Positions 1,949-46,228 of a stretch of 51,111 nucleotides of DNA are shown here, piece after piece. Each line of letters starts with the position of its first letter. Position 1 is the first letter of the stretch. Source of the stretch: Escherichia phage tunus; the sequence record NC_049816.1. One strand, given 5' to 3'. The position numbers were made by a program, and so were the translations under genes. A model generated the notes under the pieces. That model was not told the origin of the DNA. It made no database searches and was given only the letters and a program-made list of their open reading frames with translations.

Positions 1949-1993
1949 AAATAGCACTTTTTGCTAAACGCGATGCCCAAGATCGTGTATAGT
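1949..1993 (+). promoter_or_regulatory. Phage promoter module (21-bp box, variant GCTAAAC, + 19-bp spacer + TATAGT)
   Basis: Match to AAATAGCACTTTTTGTTAAAA box, 19-bp spacer, -10 TATAGT; about 30 nt upstream of the 2025 start. Confidence 0.5.
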
Positions 1994-7470: not shown

Positions 7471-8182
7471 ATTTCAGATCCTTATGTCGACAAATTTTTA
7501 CAGTGTGCTCCTGATACCATCCAGAATACAAGTCGATGCGAGATAGCTTTCCAAACGCATGATGTAATAGCTGGTTGTTACCCAAATAAATTCCCGCATG
7601 ATTCCAGACTGGTGATGATAGTTGCATAATCACCATATCACCAGGTTTTGGAGGCTCGTTAGTTTCAACAAATCCCTCTTTCAAATAATTATCCTGGTAA
7701 AGATTTTCACCATATTCTGACTTCCACCACTCGTAAGGCTTTCGGAAGTCATTCAATACTACTCCGTGCTGTTTATGCCATGCCATGATAAGACCCCAGC
7801 AATCGAACGACCCCAGCGACCACGGGCGACCGATAAGCGGCCTCTCCTGCGGCTCGACAATTCTCATATCACCTTCGGGCCATGACACTATAATCCACGA
7901 CACACCCATTTCATCGCACATACATGAGTCGTGCGCGCTCGGTATCGTACTAGCACCATCCCCGCAATGGGAATGCACCACCGCGATTAATTCGCCTTTG
8001 TCGAGCGATTCAGCGTATTCTACGGCGTCCATTTCAAAGTGATTTTCTGGATCGTCATGCACGTTGGTTATGCGGTGATATTTCTGTACCCGTGACTTTT
8101 GAGTTATGACGCCGCAAGCCTCTTTAGGGTATTCCTCTTTAACGTGCTGCATTATTTCAAGTTTAATTTTTGCACTAATCAT
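7451..8182 (-). CDS. Tail protein (lambda K-like) with MPN/JAMM and NlpC/P60 domains
   Basis: ATG at 8182 with RBS GGAGGA, overlapping the L stop; JAMM motif HSHCGDGASTIPSAHD; NlpC/P60-like Cys and His residues. Confidence 0.8.
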   Translation of the reverse strand: MISAKIKLEIMQHVKEEYPKEACGVITQKSRVQKYHRITNVHDDPENHFEMDAVEYAESLDKGELIAVVHSHCGDGASTIPSAHDSCMCDEMGVSWIIVSWPEGDMRIVEPQERPLIGRPWSLGSFDCWGLIMAWHKQHGVVLNDFRKPYEWWKSEYGENLYQDNYLKEGFVETNEPPKPGDMVIMQLSSPVWNHAGIYLGNNQLLHHAFGKLSRIDLYSGWYQEHTVKICRHKDLKYDIESN

Positions 8183-8943
8183 TATTGATTCCTCCGTAGC
8201 AGTGACGCCACCGCGCAACCGCCGAAATCCAACTCGTTTTGCTGACCGAATCTCAATTTGCAAGCCGTTACAGTTCCTGCGCAATAGTCTTGTGATGGAT
8301 CTGTTACTGGATTATTGTCTTTATCGAACATTGCCGATCCGTTATAAGAGCAACCCTTTCCGCTCCTGTACCACCCCCTTTGCGCCCAATAGCAAACGCT
8401 TTGAGTGATGCGCGGCGGGATCATTAATCCATCCATATCGTAAGGCGATGTCAGATCAAATTTCGCCACCTCTCTATTATACTGGCTTGGGCGCTCAATG
8501 TAATAAACCAATTTTCTGTAAGCGCCATCTTTGATTGCTCCGCCTTCTCCTATAAATTCCTTTGCCGTGATCCAGAAAGTCACCTTTGCTTGCATCATGC
8601 CATTGTAATTTCTGATCATGGCGCTAACCCTGCTGTCAAGGTTTGACACTATAAGCTGAGGCTTATCTGCCCTGCCGTTACTTGTGAAGTTAATCCCGCT
8701 CACACCGAAAGGCCGCGCTCCGTAAACATCACCCTGAAAAATAATATCTTTCGGCGGCAAGATTCCGGTTTGCTGCGCTTGCATTAATTCCTCGGCAGTA
8801 TAAGAGATGTTCTCATTGTGAAATCGGTAAATATTTGCTCCGAACTTCGTCCCGTCAATCTCTACAAGCGTTATAATTTCGCCTGGGTACAAACTTTGTA
8901 GGCAGTTCTCAAATTCAACTCTACCTGATTCTTTATTAGCCAT
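8182..8943 (-). CDS. Minor tail protein (lambda L-like)
   Basis: 253 aa, RBS AAGGAGG; C-terminal four-Cys cluster as in gpL. Confidence 0.75.
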   Translation of the reverse strand: MANKESGRVEFENCLQSLYPGEIITLVEIDGTKFGANIYRFHNENISYTAEELMQAQQTGILPPKDIIFQGDVYGARPFGVSGINFTSNGRADKPQLIVSNLDSRVSAMIRNYNGMMQAKVTFWITAKEFIGEGGAIKDGAYRKLVYYIERPSQYNREVAKFDLTSPYDMDGLMIPPRITQSVCYWAQRGWYRSGKGCSYNGSAMFDKDNNPVTDPSQDYCAGTVTACKLRFGQQNELDFGGCAVASLLRRNQ

Positions 8944-12714: not shown

Positions 12715-12785
12715 CTTAAGATCTCCTTATAGCACTTTTTGTTAAAAGTGGAATTAATTTATTTGATAGATTGATTTTACAGGAA

Positions 12786-12815
12786 TGAAAAAAGGGGCGC
12801 AACGCCCCTTGTTTT
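12786..12815. terminator. Intrinsic terminator (bidirectional hairpin)
   Basis: GGGGCGcaaCGCCCC flanked by A8 and T-rich runs, between major tail gene and G gene. Confidence 0.6.
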
Positions 12816-16445: not shown

Positions 16446-16472
16446 TAAAAAAGGCCGTTAAATGTAACGGCC
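16446..16472. terminator. Intrinsic terminator-like hairpin upstream of major capsid gene
   Basis: GGCCGTTaaatgtAACGGCC followed by T7 on the minus strand. Confidence 0.55.
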
Positions 16473-16522
16473 TAGATGATAGCACTTTTTGTTAAACGTG
16501 CAATGTTTTTTTATGCTATTAG

Positions 16523-21118: not shown

Positions 21119-22687
21119 CTATTTATTGCGTAGACCAGCCAGCTTTTTCATCCTTGCTACCGGATCATCTGCCAAGTTCATTTCGACGTTAACAGCATCA
21201 ACTATATTATCGACAATATCATCATGGGGATGAGAATCGTCAAAAGTGAACGCTGCAACCTCTGCCAGTATCTCAGGTAACATGGGATGACTTTCTGGCA
21301 GTGCCACACGTCCGGCCCTCATTACTGGCGCGGCGTCCATTGCTCGCGTTACCTTGTCATTGCTTCGCTGAACGGGATTTATATCAATCGGGATCTTCTT
21401 TTTGGCCCCCTGAATCAAACCCGTGCCGCTGGCCTTATCCTCAATGTGGATACGTCGCAAGCTGCCACACTCCTTATTGCGCTTCCAGCACTGATTAACG
21501 AAGGCAATAAAATTTAATTCAAGATCCGGCGCTTCCCACTTTCCGCGAATGCCATCAATGAAGTAAACGCGATTCTTATACATCCCCCAATAACAAAAAA
21601 CTGAATAGTCGTTAAGCTCTCCGGCCTTCTGCGCGGTATCACCAGTAATAAATGTGTATTCAAAGCGATCCGGTTTAGGAAGTGCGCATTTTTCGCCGCT
21701 GCCGTAATACTGGAACCACTCTGTTTTAAACACGTTGCCGCCAAGCGCGATGGGTTGCTGTTGGTACTGACTGGCGAACGTATAAGGATCTGCATTGCGC
21801 AATGCAAGCAATTCCTCCGCGCTTTCCTTCGCAGGCCAAAATGAATAATGAGCAACGCCATCTATCATCACTGGCTTACTTGACAACACATCACGATCAA
21901 ATTCAGGCTTCAACCAATCAGGAAGCGTTTCGCGGTATTCTTTCGTAACCAGCGCCGGAATACTCACAACTTTAAACTCAATACCACCCATCCCGCCATT
22001 AAGCATAAACCAGGTGGAATCATTAACGTGTAGTCGCTGTTGCACCATAACAATCGGCGTAGTGTCTTTCATTCGACGCGATCGCACTGTGTTTTTTAAC
22101 CGCATGTGGATCGCCTCACGCTTGACCTTAGAAAGCATATCATCAGGCTTGTCTGGATCGTCCAGAACCAGCATACCAGTAAAACCATCATCCATATAGC
22201 CGCCACGCAAACCTGTTACCTGTCCGCCAATAGAACGTGAGTTAACTTGCAATTTAACCTTGCCGCCATCCGTAACTATGAGATCTTTTGCGCTCGCCTT
22301 TGCCAGTTTTCCTGGCCATAGCTCTTGCCACTCAGGAGAACCGATAATCTCCTTTATCCTGTTGCTGTTTTGCTGGACAAGTCCATCACTAAACGAAAGG
22401 TTAAGGTTTCTCACCTTCCGACTTTTCAATGACGCGTAGGGTGACATGTGGATCGAGAAAATCTCAGTCTTACCGCTACCTGGCGTAATGTTGAAAATCA
22501 CATTCTGCGACTCTCCATTGATGATCTTCTCTACCTCACTGCACAATAAGCTAAAATGCCAGTTGCTCTGGAATTTTTGCCCCTGCAATAACTGAAACCA
22601 GATTCTGATCATCTTTTCGAATGAATGCTCACTGATTTCTTTAATGGCTCGCTTTTGCGCCGCCGTCAAATCTTCCCATATGATCAT
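21119..22687 (-). CDS. Terminase large subunit
   Basis: 522 aa; Walker A NITPGSGKTE; start overlaps small subunit stop (TAATG). Confidence 0.9.
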   Translation of the reverse strand: MIIWEDLTAAQKRAIKEISEHSFEKMIRIWFQLLQGQKFQSNWHFSLLCSEVEKIINGESQNVIFNITPGSGKTEIFSIHMSPYASLKSRKVRNLNLSFSDGLVQQNSNRIKEIIGSPEWQELWPGKLAKASAKDLIVTDGGKVKLQVNSRSIGGQVTGLRGGYMDDGFTGMLVLDDPDKPDDMLSKVKREAIHMRLKNTVRSRRMKDTTPIVMVQQRLHVNDSTWFMLNGGMGGIEFKVVSIPALVTKEYRETLPDWLKPEFDRDVLSSKPVMIDGVAHYSFWPAKESAEELLALRNADPYTFASQYQQQPIALGGNVFKTEWFQYYGSGEKCALPKPDRFEYTFITGDTAQKAGELNDYSVFCYWGMYKNRVYFIDGIRGKWEAPDLELNFIAFVNQCWKRNKECGSLRRIHIEDKASGTGLIQGAKKKIPIDINPVQRSNDKVTRAMDAAPVMRAGRVALPESHPMLPEILAEVAAFTFDDSHPHDDIVDNIVDAVNVEMNLADDPVARMKKLAGLRNK

Positions 22688-23214
22688 TAAAGTTGCTCCA
22701 GAATATCAATAACAGCCTCTTTCACCTCATCGGCAGTTACTGCGTCAATGCTTGCATTAGTTGCCGCGCTCGCTTCAACGCTCACTGTTGCTGGCTTCTC
22801 TACTCCGATCTCTTTACCGATAAATCCAGCGTTAATCATGTTATTTGCCGCAAGCTGGAATTTTTGCTCGTAAATTACTTTATCAACAAACTCCATCACA
22901 TCGCAGAATCCAGGCTCTTTACGCCATTTGCTTACGGCAGCCTCAGTCACGCCGAGATACAAGCTGAATCCGTTAACCGTGAAAACGCGAGGCTTGTAAA
23001 CTCTGCTCTCGTACACGTCACCCTGAAAGGAAGCAGTTTCAGCCGCCTGAATGTGATTCTCTTCGGCCCAAGTGAAATAGCGGATCGCCATGTCAAAAAC
23101 CTGTTCCGGCGTGTACTTGTGGCGGTTGTTTAGCGTGACAATATCGCCATAAGTTTTATTGTATAACTCTTTGAAATTTAATGCCTTTACAGCAGGCTCA
23201 ACGTTTTTAGCCAT
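22687..23214 (-). CDS. Terminase small subunit (putative)
   Basis: ATG at 23214 (MAKNVEPAV) with RBS AAAGGAGG; immediately upstream of large terminase. Confidence 0.6.
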   Translation of the reverse strand: MAKNVEPAVKALNFKELYNKTYGDIVTLNNRHKYTPEQVFDMAIRYFTWAEENHIQAAETASFQGDVYESRVYKPRVFTVNGFSLYLGVTEAAVSKWRKEPGFCDVMEFVDKVIYEQKFQLAANNMINAGFIGKEIGVEKPATVSVEASAATNASIDAVTADEVKEAVIDILEQL

Positions 23215-23242
23215 TGTTAATCCTCCTTTGGTTAGATGCCTG

Positions 23243-23251
23243 ATTATACCA
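23243..23251 (-). promoter_or_regulatory. Extended -10 promoter element TGgTATAAT upstream of small terminase
   Basis: Perfect TATAAT with TG at -15/-14, just downstream of a terminator hairpin. Confidence 0.35.
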
Positions 23252-23263
23252 GACAACGGGCAA

Positions 23264-23294
23264 TAAAAAACCCGCCGTGCGGCGGGTAATTTTT
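23264..23294. terminator. Intrinsic terminator
   Basis: CCCGCCGtgCGGCGGG with A6 upstream and T-run downstream. Confidence 0.55.
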
Positions 23295-23655: not shown

Positions 23656-23889
23656 TTACGCCCCATTCGCCGGATCGTCATCTTCACTTTGTAATTCATC
23701 AGCGACAACCTCACGCTTAATGCTGGTAATGTTGTGAATCGGGTAAGCAACATTTCCAATAGAAATGCAAGTTTCGTCACCGTCCAACTGATCCTCTGTC
23801 GCTTCTACTGTAAAGCTGTTAACAAAGCTATTGTAGAAAGGGTGAATAACGGTATCACGGAAAGAAACGGTTAATTTGTATTTGATCAT
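23656..23889 (-). CDS. Hypothetical protein
   Basis: 77 aa, RBS GGAG; acidic C-terminus. Confidence 0.4.
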   Translation of the reverse strand: MIKYKLTVSFRDTVIHPFYNSFVNSFTVEATEDQLDGDETCISIGNVAYPIHNITSIKREVVADELQSEDDDPANGA

Positions 23890-23930
23890 TTTGAATCTCC
23901 ATTAAAAAAGGCGATACGTCTTACGGATTA

Positions 23931-23945
23931 TTTTGCATTGCAAAA
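23931..23945. promoter_or_regulatory. Perfect 15-bp palindrome TTTTGCATTGCAAAA (candidate operator)
   Basis: Exact inverted repeat in the leader between a putative promoter (24023-24051) and the 23889 start. Confidence 0.3.
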
Positions 23946-24022
23946 ACCTCCTGCATATCGCCGTTGTTGTGTGACTATCGCGTCACGCGTTCGGACCAAG
24001 CCGCTCTTATGTAAACGACGCC

Positions 24023-24051
24023 ATGCTAACCAATCAGGAAAGAGTTGTCAA
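24023..24051 (-). promoter_or_regulatory. sigma70-type promoter candidate TTGACA-N17-TAGCAT
   Basis: Consensus -35 with plausible -10; lies in one of the few junctions lacking the phage box. Confidence 0.3.
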
Positions 24052-24282
24052 TCATTCCCTGTCGAAAGCGTTCCCCCAGCGTCCGCGCAAGTAACCACAT
24101 AGCCAAATGAATTGAGTGATCGTCAACATTGGCGCGATTGGCTGGTAGTGTTCTGCAATGATGCCCTTCATTACTTCATCAACATACTTCCCGCGCTTTT
24201 CCACATCCGCTTTCATCGCCTCGCCGCACTTTTTAGCCTGGCGTTTAGCTGCGTTGAATTGCGCCTCATTCATGCCGAACAT
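24052..24282 (-). CDS. Hypothetical protein
   Basis: Internal ATG at 24282 preceded by AGGGGAGGGG. Confidence 0.4.
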   Translation of the reverse strand: MFGMNEAQFNAAKRQAKKCGEAMKADVEKRGKYVDEVMKGIIAEHYQPIAPMLTITQFIWLCGYLRGRWGNAFDRE

Positions 24283-24410
24283 CAGTATCCCCTCCCCTTC
24301 CATTCTTCCGCAAGTTTGAAATAGTTCATAGCTTCTTCTACATCTCCGCGCTCAAGTGCTTCCTCCTGCTTCTCTTTGCACCATTGCGAAGGTTGTTTGT
24401 ACTCATCCAT
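24282..24410 (-). CDS. Hypothetical acidic microprotein (42 aa)
   Basis: ATG at 24410 with RBS AAGGTG; stop overlaps next start; below the ORF-track size cut-off. Confidence 0.3.
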   Translation of the reverse strand: MDEYKQPSQWCKEKQEEALERGDVEEAMNYFKLAEEWKGRGY

Positions 24411-31910: not shown

Positions 31911-31939
31911 ATTATAAAAGCTATTTGGTGCGTGTCAAT
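31911..31939 (-). promoter_or_regulatory. sigma70-type early promoter TTGACA-N17-TATAAT (leftward)
   Basis: Consensus hexamers; resembles the promoter at 1554-1581. Confidence 0.55.
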
Positions 31940-45751: not shown

Positions 45752-46228
45752 ATGAAAGATGCACGAATTGCGGTGTCTACGGGTGAGATCGACAAGCGCA
45801 CTATTAACGGTAACAACGGAACGCGACGAGGTAAAGACAAAAAGCCACGAAAACACCGAACCGGATTTCTTATCCTGCGAGATGAGGTAAAAGCAAGCCT
45901 GAAATCTCGCTTGGATATTCTGATCGAGTATTATGGCGGTGTTCCTGCTATGGCTCGACGTCTACGCGTATCTCAGCAAGTCGTTAACCAATGGCGAAAG
46001 CGTGGTATGATTTCAGCCGCTGGAGCACAAAAGGTGCATAACGACTACAAATATAATGGATGCAAAGGATACCGCGCATCATTTTGTCGTCCAGATCTGC
46101 GGTTTGATTCTAACGGTAAGCCTCTTACTACCCGTTGCGACAAATACGAGATGTTGCGCGTAGTCAAAAATTCAGACTACGAACCAGGCGGACGATTCTA
46201 CAAAGGTGATAACAGCACAAATAGCTAA
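45752..46228 (+). CDS. HTH DNA-binding protein (Cro/CI-like helix-turn-helix)
   Basis: 158 aa, RBS GAGGTG; HTH segment MARRLRVSQQVVNQWRKRGMIS; basic N-terminus. Confidence 0.55.
   Translation: MKDARIAVSTGEIDKRTINGNNGTRRGKDKKPRKHRTGFLILRDEVKASLKSRLDILIEYYGGVPAMARRLRVSQQVVNQWRKRGMISAAGAQKVHNDYKYNGCKGYRASFCRPDLRFDSNGKPLTTRCDKYEMLRVVKNSDYEPGGRFYKGDNSTNS

What the first reader, a model, noticed from the sequence alone, without database searches (positions are those of the whole stretch)
23890..24051. Regulated promoter candidate at the early-late boundary, with perfect palindromes
This junction lacks the 21-bp box. It carries a consensus -35 TTGACA with a plausible -10 (TAGCAT), a perfect 15-bp palindrome TTTTGCATTGCAAAA and a second inverted repeat GTGACtatcgcGTCAC in the leader. 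It lies just upstream of the small genes that precede small terminase, so it may be an operator-controlled start of late transcription.
Basis: partly seen in the sequence, partly recalled or inferred. Interest (0 to 1): 0.45.

Follow-up and report, generated by a model that had tools for sequence, protein, structure and literature searches.

The report
Conserved promoter plus structured leader RNA
The junction holds a real, strongly conserved host-type promoter, but the "palindromes" behind it are helices of a previously undescribed structured leader RNA. All T1-like phages sampled carry this RNA at the entrance to their DNA-packaging and late genes.

Summary
The window is a T1-like phage (Drexlerviridae, Warwickvirus, 99% identical to phage tunus), and the genes here lie on the minus strand.

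**Promoter.** It is real. In 75 of 80 related loci the layout TTGACn, 17 bp, TAnnnT is kept, followed 5-6 nt later by a conserved CGU. The inner positions of the -10 vary freely.

**Palindromes.** They are not operators.
- GTGAC..GTCAC is helix P2 of a transcribed RNA. Together with helix P1 it covaries across the family: 97.8% of cells are paired, against 19-60% when the partners are slid, and 8 of 9 pairs show compensatory changes.
- The 15-bp palindrome is only the tip of a long third hairpin, P3. It is deleted or replaced by unrelated hairpins in close relatives.
- In this lineage P3 is followed by U6, which makes it terminator-like.

**Distribution.** The RNA is single-copy. It has no Rfam match and is absent from E. 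coli genomes and from the GTDB species-representative genomes scanned with a lineage-specific pattern. It is not homologous to HK022 put. It always sits at the 5' end of the transcript that enters variable small genes or tRNAs, then a terminator, then terminase.

**Function.** This part is inferred. The most likely role is cis control of transcription elongation or termination into the late genes. A stand-alone small RNA is the main rival.

The parts
24046..24051 (-). -35 hexamer TTGACA; it directly follows the TGA stop codon of the upstream 83-aa gene
   Evidence: TTGACn is kept in 47 of 48 unique promoter variants from 75 of 80 related loci.
24030..24037 (-). Conserved spacer motif CTGATTGG (family consensus CTGAyyGG) inside the 17-bp spacer; a possible protein contact or extended -10-like feature
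   Evidence: Present in 43 of 48 unique variants. Also seen before the -10 of the box-type promoter at about 34186. Its function was not tested.
24023..24028 (-). -10 hexamer TAGCAT
   Evidence: Relatives carry 13 different hexamers, all TAnnnT, with a 17-bp spacer in 47 of 48.
24004..24017 (-). Predicted transcription start (about 24016-24017) and conserved single-stranded 5' segment CGUUUACAUAAGAG (family consensus CGUrrACrnAAGAG)
   Evidence: CGU always lies 5-6 nt after the -10. The columns are invariant in alignments A3 and A8. The start site is inferred, not mapped.
23992..24003 (-). Helix P1: CGG(C)/(U)CCG with loop UUGG
   Evidence: All 4 pairs show compensatory changes across the family: CGGC/GCCG, GCUC/GAGC, GUGU/ACAC, GCGC/GCGC, GCCC/GGGU.
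23987..23991 (-). Conserved junction AACGC between P1 and P2
   Evidence: Nearly invariant AACG in A8.
23971..23986 (-). Helix P2: GUGAC-GCGAUA-GUCAC.
   Evidence: 100% of cells are paired and 4 of 5 pairs show compensatory changes. At least 10 stem versions are seen.
23963..23970 (-). CA-rich linker ACAACAAC
   Evidence: Conserved within the Warwick/Hanriver group only.
23910..23962 (-). Long hairpin P3. The basal stem is GGCGAUAUG/CGUAUCGCC. A conserved 3'-side internal loop carries GUAAGA.
   Evidence: -21.1 kcal/mol, z = -4.1 against shuffles. 6 of 10 basal pairs show compensatory changes.
23931..23945 (-). Tip of P3: UUUUGCAAUGCAAAA.
   Evidence: Deleted in 5 of 8 relatives and replaced by unrelated hairpins in others.
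23904..23909 (-). U6 tract directly after P3, making P3 an intrinsic-terminator-like attenuator
   Evidence: A U-tract is present in 17 of 18 loci of this hairpin type. It is absent in the T1, Tlsvirus and Rogunavirinae versions.
23887..23900 (-). Ribosome-binding site GGAG (23900-23897) and ATG (23889-23887) of the 77-aa ORF
   Evidence: The downstream ORF differs between lineages.
23270..23287 (-). Strong intrinsic terminator immediately upstream of small terminase (23256..22687); the next barrier for transcripts from this promoter
   Evidence: T1 has the equivalent at 8322-8344 before its small terminase. TLS terminator T28 (8723-8744) matches in sequence and lies at the position where relatives have their pre-terminase terminator.

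Best explanation
**Shown.**
- The junction is the start of a transcription unit.
- A canonical host sigma-70 promoter sits at -35 24051-24046 and -10 24028-24023.
- It is followed by a conserved structured region on the gene-sense strand, in this order: a 14-nt conserved single-stranded 5' segment, helix P1, AACGC, helix P2, a linker, and a long hairpin P3 followed by U6. The ribosome-binding site and the first small gene come next.
- Both palindromes are helices of this RNA.
- The core (promoter, 5' segment, P1 and P2) is conserved by covariation across Drexlerviridae. It was seen in Tempevirinae, Tunavirinae including T1, Rogunavirinae, Webervirus and, by eye only, Braunvirinae.
- It occurs once per genome, always at the head of the block of variable small genes or tRNAs, a terminator, terminase and the structural genes.

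**Inferred mechanism.**
- Host RNA polymerase starts at about 24016 without a phage factor.
- The nascent 5' domain folds and acts in cis on transcription elongation. It may act on its own or by recruiting a factor.
- This determines how much transcription passes P3-U6, the terminator at 23287-23270, and the further intrinsic terminators of the late operon.
- Transcripts that stop at U6 leave a short RNA of about 113 nt as a by-product.
For: **Promoter.**
- Match of 10 of 12.
- 75 of 80 anchor loci keep TTGACn, 17 bp, TAnnnT, 5-6 nt, CGU. The -10 appears as 13 different hexamers.

**RNA structure.**
- Over the whole element, 97.9% of cells are paired against 24-53% when slid, and 9 pairs show double changes.
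- Over the family-wide core, 97.8% are paired against 19-60%. 8 of 9 pairs are compensatory, and the covariation score is 0.82 against 0.25 for shuffles.
- G-U pairs occur only in the sense orientation.
- The RNA core is as conserved as the neighbouring gene, or more so.

**Copy number and position.**
- One copy in the window.
- It occupies the same slot in T1 (31.5 bits), Tlsvirus, Sd1 and Webervirus, and in 67 of 80 loci from viral metagenomes.

**Arguments for a cis, transcription-level role.**
- The distance from the promoter is fixed.
- The downstream cargo varies: different ORFs in some lineages, tRNAs in others. Gene-specific translational control is therefore unlikely.
- Webervirus keeps only P1-P2 in a 5' UTR of about 65 nt, with no 3' hairpin. 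This argues against an obligatory stand-alone small RNA.
- The late strand carries 10 strong intrinsic terminators, including one directly before small terminase, but only one sense 21-nt box. T1 is annotated with 11 terminators on the plus strand between 8322 and 29628.
- P3 is stable (-21.1 kcal/mol, z = -4.1) and is followed by U6.
Against: - No start site, RNA 3' end or read-through has been measured. The library holds no T1-family transcriptome.
- Leaky terminators that set the ratios of late proteins would need no antitermination.
- The helices are short (4-5 bp). The element has no similarity to HK022 put or to any Rfam family.
- No Q-like or N-like protein was found in the few tests run. 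These covered only a few ORFs plus a crude arginine-rich scan of all ORFs.
- The U-tract is lineage-specific. T1, Tlsvirus and Rogunavirinae lack it.
- P3 has a large branched loop that the terminator scan did not call.
- Polymerases arriving from upstream early promoters would transcribe the same RNA, so the element cannot by itself tell early from late transcription.
Confidence: 0.4

Rival explanations
1. The promoter drives a stand-alone stable small RNA gene. The RNA of about 113 nt is ended by P3-U6 here. In other lineages it would be released by RNase P cleavage at the following tRNA. It would act in trans, by binding a host or phage protein or by base-pairing. Read-through into the small genes would be incidental.
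For: - The architecture here is promoter, structured RNA, then hairpin plus U6.
- In eight sampled loci, including Rogunavirinae and Braunvirinae representatives, tRNA genes begin 8-15 nt after the conserved ..CCGUAA.. hairpin. Processing would therefore free a discrete RNA.
- Conserved loop and junction nucleotides (GCGAUA, CCGUAA, AACG) suggest protein binding or tertiary folding.
- There is a precedent: the short lambdoid PR' transcript acts as a small RNA (PMC7547250, abstract listed).
Against: - Webervirus (about half of the sampled loci) has only P1-P2 directly in front of a ribosome-binding site, with no 3' hairpin or terminator.
- T1 and Tlsvirus have no U-tract.
- The linker that could serve as a seed is not conserved outside one group.
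- No complementary target exists in the phage, and there is no similarity to E. coli sequences.
Confidence: 0.22
2. The promoter is switched by a phage DNA-binding protein that recognises the two palindromes as operators in the leader.
For: - The palindromes exist at the stated positions.
- A putative transcriptional regulator is encoded elsewhere in the genome (bas04_0032; the window equivalent is 45752-46228).
- The conserved CTGAyyGG in the promoter spacer leaves room for some DNA-level regulation.
Against: - The 15-bp palindrome is missing or replaced in most relatives.
- P2 covaries instead of conserving half-site sequence, and it uses G-U pairs.
- Palindromes of this size occur at the chance rate in the window.
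- Both palindromes lie 30-85 nt downstream of the predicted start, which is unusual for operators.
Confidence: 0.04
3. The structured leader is an mRNA-level element. It would be a processing or stability determinant, or a platform for ribosome or protein binding, that sets the half-life or translation of the downstream transcript rather than transcription itself.
For: - It is always at the 5' end of the transcript.
- In Webervirus, P2 abuts the ribosome-binding site.
- The 5' segment is purine-rich.
Against: - 14 unpaired 5' nucleotides make a poor 5'-end protector (general knowledge of 5'-end-dependent RNase E decay).
- The downstream gene differs between lineages, and in some lineages processed tRNAs separate it from the leader.
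- The ribosome-binding site is not sequestered in the predicted folds.
Confidence: 0.15
4. The element acts at the DNA level. It would be a packaging (pac) site, or a replication origin in which transcription from the promoter primes or activates replication.
For: - It lies near the terminase genes.
- The origin of T1-like phages is unknown (PMC11447400).
- Promoter-plus-hairpin origins exist in other replicons (own knowledge: ColE1, T7, T4).
Against: - In T1 the terminal repeat, and therefore pac, starts 7.6 kb upstream of the homologous element.
- In TLS, pac was mapped by restriction fragments and assigned to a short P22-pac-like sequence (AGATTT) that does not resemble this element.
- Covariation with sense-strand G-U pairs, at a fixed distance from a promoter, points to RNA.
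Confidence: 0.04

Closest known systems
HK022 put RNAs (putL/putR), cis-acting RNA antiterminators
   Same: - Both are nascent RNAs with two stem-loops encoded just downstream of a sigma-70 promoter. putL starts at about +3 of the PL transcript.
- Both lie upstream of terminators in a long operon, and neither has an obvious dedicated protein (PMC9378689).
   Different: - There is no sequence or structure homology: the covariance model R1 finds nothing in the HK022 early region.
- put has two long stems, about 70 nt in all, with a triplex. Here the helices are 4-5 bp, preceded by a 14-nt conserved single strand.
- put occurs twice per genome; this element occurs once.
- Activity on RNA polymerase is untested here.
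Lambda PR' - 6S RNA - tR' with the Q antiterminator
   Same: A constitutive sigma-70 promoter is followed within about 110-200 nt by a terminator, ahead of the late genes. A short terminated RNA is the default product.
   Different: - No Q-family protein was detected among the flanking ORFs.
- No conserved -10-like pause element was found in the initial transcribed region (reading).
- The terminator is missing in most other lineages of the family, whereas the 5' RNA domain is what is conserved.
The 21-nt-box promoters of T1-like phages (TLS direct repeats, PMC11447400)
   Same: They belong to the same genome and the same transcription system, and both have a G-rich stretch directly before the -10.
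   Different: This junction has a canonical -35 and no box. The box sites have ATAGCACnnnTTGnTAAAA, a GC-rich inverted repeat and an extended -10.
T4 stable RNAs (species 1 and 2, rnaC/rnaD) next to the T4 tRNA cluster (own knowledge)
   Same: Both are phage-encoded structured small RNAs of unknown function that are co-located and co-transcribed with tRNA genes.
   Different: There is no homology. In most Drexlerviridae, including this window, no tRNA follows, and the RNA is a 5' leader of an mRNA.

Membership tests
Sigma-70 (housekeeping) promoter | -35 TTGACA-like and -10 TATAAT-like hexamers, 17 +/- 1 bp apart | tested here: met
   TTGACA, 17 bp, TAGCAT: 10 of 12 matches.
Sigma-70 (housekeeping) promoter | Selective constraint on the critical positions and spacing in relatives | tested here: met
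   48 unique variants were found. 47 have TTGACn, 47 have a 17-bp spacer, and all have TAnnnT with free inner positions.
Sigma-70 (housekeeping) promoter | Mapped transcription start | not testable with these tools
   No transcriptome of a T1-like phage was found in the library.
Operator (palindromic repressor or activator site) | Half-site sequence conserved in relatives | tested here: not met
   The 15-bp palindrome is absent from 5 of 8 relatives or replaced by unrelated hairpins. P2 covaries.
Operator (palindromic repressor or activator site) | Palindrome more frequent than chance | tested here: not met
   23 palindromes with 7-bp arms in the window, against 17 +/- 5 simulated.
Structured RNA (transcribed helices) | Compensatory base changes that keep the pairing, and pairing lost when partners are shifted | tested here: met
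   97.8-97.9% of cells paired against 19-60% when slid. In the core, 8 of 9 pairs are compensatory.
Structured RNA (transcribed helices) | Strand-specific G-U pairs | tested here: met
   G-U or U-G pairs occur in P1, P2 and P3 on the gene-sense strand; for example U-G at columns 73/111 in 16 of 18 sequences.
Intrinsic (rho-independent) terminator | Stable GC-containing hairpin directly followed by a U-tract | tested here: inconclusive
   P3 folds at -21.1 kcal/mol and is followed by U6. However, the enclosed region is 35 nt and branched, and the consensus scan did not call it. Termination efficiency is unknown.
Intrinsic (rho-independent) terminator | Terminator conserved wherever the element occurs | tested here: not met
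   The U-tract occurs only in the Warwick/Hanriver/Henuseptimavirus type. T1, Tlsvirus, Sd1 and 12469III lack it.
HK022 put antiterminator RNA | Homology to putL/putR | tested here: not met
   The covariance model R1 run over the HK022 early and late control regions gave a best hit of 12 bits, and none of the hits lie where put would be expected.
HK022 put antiterminator RNA | Promoter-proximal two-hairpin RNA upstream of terminators | tested here: met
   P1 and P2 begin about 14 nt after the predicted start. Terminators follow at 23904, at 23270 and at nine further sites downstream.
HK022 put antiterminator RNA | Read-through in cis without phage protein; blocked by mutations in the RNA polymerase beta' zinc-binding domain | not testable with these tools
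   This needs reporter or in vitro transcription assays.
Lambda-type Q/PR' late control | Q-family antiterminator gene next to the promoter | tested here: not met
   Nine flanking ORFs have no Pfam or PHROG antiterminator match. The rest of the genome was not scanned.
N/nut antitermination | boxA (CGCTCTTTA-like) plus a boxB hairpin in the leader, and an arginine-rich N protein | tested here: not met
   There is no GCTCTT in the transcribed leader (sequence). No ORF has an N-terminal arginine-rich motif.
Any Rfam family | Covariance-model match | tested here: not met
   There was no match at gathering thresholds. With E up to 10 the region gave only noise hits, SNORD26 and bxd_1. In other lineages only tRNAs were found.
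pac site | Coincides with the start of the terminal redundancy | tested here: not met
   The T1 repeat region is at 1-2800, while its homologous element is at 7618-7707.

The most novel reading that the evidence does not exclude
The P1-P2 domain is a self-sufficient (put-like) or factor-loading RNA. It would make host RNA polymerase resistant to termination. This would explain how T1-like phages, which encode no RNA polymerase, sigma factor or known antiterminator, transcribe a late region of about 23 kb that is interrupted by some ten intrinsic terminators. It would be the second, unrelated class of cis-acting antiterminator RNA in coliphages, and it is present in the classical phage T1.
Probability: 0.25. 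Interest if true: 0.8.

Novelty: new variant of a known kind. Interest (0 to 1): 0.6.

Why it matters
T1 is one of the classical coliphages, and Drexlerviridae are among the commonest E. coli and Klebsiella phages used in therapy collections. How they time and drive late transcription is nevertheless unknown. A 2024 re-annotation of TLS found only three sigma-70 promoters and listed the transcription signals among the open questions (PMC11447400).

This analysis gives three things:
- a promoter that is clearly under selection;
- a family-wide structured RNA, absent from Rfam, at the entrance to the packaging and late genes;
- a set of natural compensatory variants that make mutational tests straightforward.

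If the RNA controls elongation, it explains late gene expression in this family. If it is a stable small RNA, it is a new conserved phage RNA co-located with the phage tRNA genes.

Tried and rejected
- **Rfam.** Searches at gathering and at permissive thresholds, on the window and on seven divergent loci, found nothing except tRNAs.
- **HK022 put.** The covariance model found no homology.
- **pac site.** Rejected from the T1 terminal repeat coordinates.
- **Host mimicry or a bacterial origin.** There was no match in 5,426 E. coli genomes. Of 10 pattern matches in the GTDB species-representative genomes, none is real.
- **Second copy in the genome (nutL/nutR-like).** None was found.
- **Trans targets inside the phage.** Complementarity to the 5' segment and to the CA-rich linker is at chance level.
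- **Coding explanation.** The antisense 54-aa ORF at 23938-24102 and a possible UUG-initiated leader peptide are rejected. Loop and tip indels are not multiples of three, and the ORFs are not kept in relatives.
- **Kissing interaction between the P2 loop and the P3 loop.** Rejected, because CCGUAAG changes to CCAUAAG or CUAUAAG with no change in the P2 loop.
- **Antiterminator alternative fold and a four-way junction (5' AAGAG with the U-tract).** These appear in some minimum-energy folds but are not conserved.
- **Flanking proteins.** All are of unknown function: phrog_303, phrog_1312, DUF7299 and DUF7180. None has a PDB, NCBIfam or antiterminator match.
- **N-like arginine-rich proteins.** None is convincing.
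- **First pattern scan.** The first loose scan of viral contigs returned mostly chance matches and had to be tightened.

Full report
**Identity and layout.**
The window is a Drexlerviridae (Tempevirinae, Warwickvirus) genome, 99% identical to Escherichia phage tunus over the region. Genes around the finding lie on the minus strand. The interval 23890-24051 is exactly the gap between an 83-aa ORF (24303..24052, phrog_303) and a 77-aa ORF (23889..23656). Downstream come two more small ORFs and a strong terminator at 23287-23270. Small terminase (23256..22687), large terminase and the structural genes follow.

**Checking the observation.**
Everything described is there:
- the -35 TTGACA at 24051-24046, a 17-nt spacer, and the -10 TAGCAT at 24028-24023;
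- TTTTGCATTGCAAAA at 23931-23945;
- GTGAC/GTCAC at 23971-23986.

No 21-nt box lies within 1 kb on either side. By themselves these features are not above chance:
- Promoter-like matches number 14, against 13.3 expected in 8 kb.
- Palindromes with 7-bp arms number 23, against 17 +/- 5 in the window.

**The promoter is real.**
I aligned the junction from eight phages of four genera. I then used the upstream protein as an anchor to fetch 80 Drexlerviridae-like loci.
- 75 of the 80 keep TTGACn, 17 bp, TAnnnT, followed 5-6 nt later by CGU.
- Among 48 distinct variants the -10 appears as 13 different hexamers that all keep T1, A2 and T6. The spacer is 17 bp in 47.
- Where the conserved spacer motif CTGAyyGG shifts by one base, the -35 shifts with it, so 17 bp is preserved.
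- Only about five intergenic sites in the whole window have a comparable canonical -35/-10 pair.
- The other transcription units carry the 21-nt box instead.

**The palindromes are RNA helices.**
The same alignments show three helices downstream of the predicted start.

On 18 sequences of the window's group:
- 97.9% of cells pair, against 24-53% when the 3' partners are slid by 1-3 columns.
- 9 pairs show changes on both sides.

The core (5' segment, P1, P2) aligns cleanly across 20 sequences that include T1 and Tlsvirus:
- 97.8% are paired, against 19-60% when slid.
- 8 of 9 pairs are compensatory.
- The covariation score is 0.82, against 0.25 +/- 0.03 for shuffles.

The G-U pairs are standard pairs only on the gene-sense strand.

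The 15-bp palindrome is the tip of hairpin P3.
- It is deleted in G29-2, slyngel, JakobBernoulli, Jahat and IsaakIselin.
- It is replaced by CAGUuucACUG in Pocis76, UUGCgauGCAA in JLBYU09 and UCCGCaagGCGGA in one metagenomic phage.

This is incompatible with operator half-sites and typical of a variable hairpin extension.

**Anatomy in the window (minus strand).**
- Predicted start at about 24016.
- CGUUUACAUAAGAG at 24017-24004.
- P1 at 24003-23992.
- AACGC at 23991-23987.
- P2 at 23986-23971.
- ACAACAAC at 23970-23963.
- P3 at 23962-23910. It folds at -21.1 kcal/mol with z = -4.1, and has a conserved 3'-side GUAAGA internal loop.
- U6 at 23909-23904.
- GGAG at 23900-23897.
- ATG at 23889.

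**Distribution.**
- A covariance model (R1) finds one copy in the window: 104.8 bits, with the next best hit at 11 bits.
- It finds one copy in T1 at 7618-7707, in the equivalent gap upstream of the terminator and small terminase.
- It also finds the element in Tlsvirus, Rogunavirinae (Sd1) and Webervirus, and in 67 of 80 anchor loci at a fixed offset.
- Braunvirinae has it by eye.
- The 3' part varies between lineages:
  - The window's group has P3 plus a U-tract.
  - T1, Tlsvirus, Sd1 and 12469III have a 5-bp hairpin with an ..CCGUAA loop and no U-tract.
  - Webervirus has only P1-P2 and then a ribosome-binding site.
- In eight sampled loci tRNA genes, up to six of them, follow the element directly.
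- The first ORF downstream differs between lineages.
- The RNA core is as conserved as the neighbouring gene or more so: 72-80% against 61-67% with distant relatives.
- No Rfam family matches in any lineage.
- Nothing similar occurs in E. coli genomes.
- A pattern specific to the window's lineage gave no real match in the GTDB species-representative genomes.
- There is no homology to HK022 put.
- No paper in the library describes the element.

**Mechanism (inferred).**
The universally conserved unit is a sigma-70 promoter with a two-helix RNA domain fixed at the 5' end of its transcript. It sits in front of variable cargo and of the packaging and late genes.

Gene-specific translational control is unlikely, because the cargo varies and in some lineages consists of processed tRNAs. 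An obligatory stand-alone small RNA is hard to reconcile with the Webervirus version.

The late strand carries ten strong intrinsic terminators, one directly before terminase, but only one sense 21-nt box. T1 is annotated in the same way.

I therefore favour a cis role in transcription elongation or termination. This could be put-like or factor-loading, with P3-U6 as an attenuator that yields an RNA of about 113 nt as a by-product. My confidence in this is about 0.4.

The main objections:
- Leaky terminators may need no antitermination.
- The helices are short.
- No antiterminator protein was found.
- The U-tract is lineage-specific.
- Upstream transcription would also produce the RNA.

Rivals, with my confidence in each:
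- a stand-alone stable RNA (0.22);
- an mRNA-level stability, processing or translation element (0.15);
- the operator model (0.04);
- a pac site or replication origin (0.04).

**Verdict.**
What is really there is a conserved promoter plus a new structured leader RNA shared across Drexlerviridae. Its function is open and directly testable.

Noticed in passing
window, 20 sites: 1951(+), 12729(+), 16479(+), 21122(-), 25340(-), 26634(-), 28145(-), 29348(-), 30686(-), 31149(-), 32494(+), 32881(+), 34186(+), 36104(+), 36778(+), 38940(+), 42202(-), 43251(-), 45740(-), 47302(-): The 21-nt box ATAGCACnnnTTGnTAAAA occurs 20 times, against 0.4 expected. The TLS paper lists its function as an open question. 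Most intergenic copies are followed by a GC-rich inverted repeat of about 19 nt. The 3' arm of that repeat ends in (T)GG directly before CATAAT, TATAAT or TATAGT, which makes an extended -10. The box therefore looks like the upstream half of a phage-specific promoter class (PMC11447400).
   Followed up: partly
window 12729-12747(+), 16479-16497(+), 1951-1969(+): Three boxes inside or beside the late region point opposite to the late genes. Two of them run straight into bidirectional terminators (12792-12810 and 16452-16473), so they would give only very short antisense transcripts. This is unexplained.
   Followed up: no
window 23270-23287 (both strands): A strong bidirectional terminator (ACCCGCCGCACGGCGGGT plus T-tracts) sits 14 nt upstream of the small terminase start, with no promoter in between. 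T1 has one at the same position (8322-8344), and TLS terminator T28 (8723-8744) is similar in sequence. Terminase expression therefore appears to depend on terminator read-through.
   Followed up: partly
window minus strand: 21091-21070, 17351-17330, 16473-16452, 15449-15429, 12810-12792, 12081-12064, 9002-8981, 6867-6851, 3214-3194: Nine further strong intrinsic terminators punctuate the late operon of about 23 kb. One of them lies right after the major capsid gene.
   Followed up: partly
L132 1914-2068, L133 2080-2157, L192 1607-2254, L205 1802-1889, L212, L214, L217, L219: In eight sampled loci, including Sd1 (Rogunavirinae), 12469III (Braunvirinae) and a T1-like metagenomic contig (L205), one to six tRNA genes sit in the same intergenic slot. 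They begin 8-15 nt after the conserved ..CCGUAA.. hairpin, so the promoter also drives the phage tRNAs there.
   Followed up: yes
window 31938-31911(-), 50905(-), 47134(+), 1581(-): The few other canonical sigma-70 promoters in the window include a perfect consensus, TTGACA-16-TATAAT, at 31938(-).
   Followed up: no
L182, L179, L173, L175 (Webervirus-like loci), about 1535-1560: In some Weberviruses helix P2 (GCCCCgcuuuGGGGC) is directly followed by UUUUAUU. There P2 itself looks terminator-like.
   Followed up: no
records MN781674.1 (vB_EcoS_XY3) and MN432485.1 (SFP17), genes under the junction match: One of the small genes flanking the junction is annotated 'ipe: inducer of pleiotropic effects' in two relatives. 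I did not trace the basis of that name.
   Followed up: no
window 24055-24303(-): The upstream protein (phrog_303; consensus MFGLNEAqFNAvKR...FvWLaGYLxGRxG) is conserved next to the element in all subfamilies sampled. In T1 one extra gene lies between them. It has no Pfam, NCBIfam or PDB match, so it is a candidate partner, but I tested it no further.
   Followed up: partly
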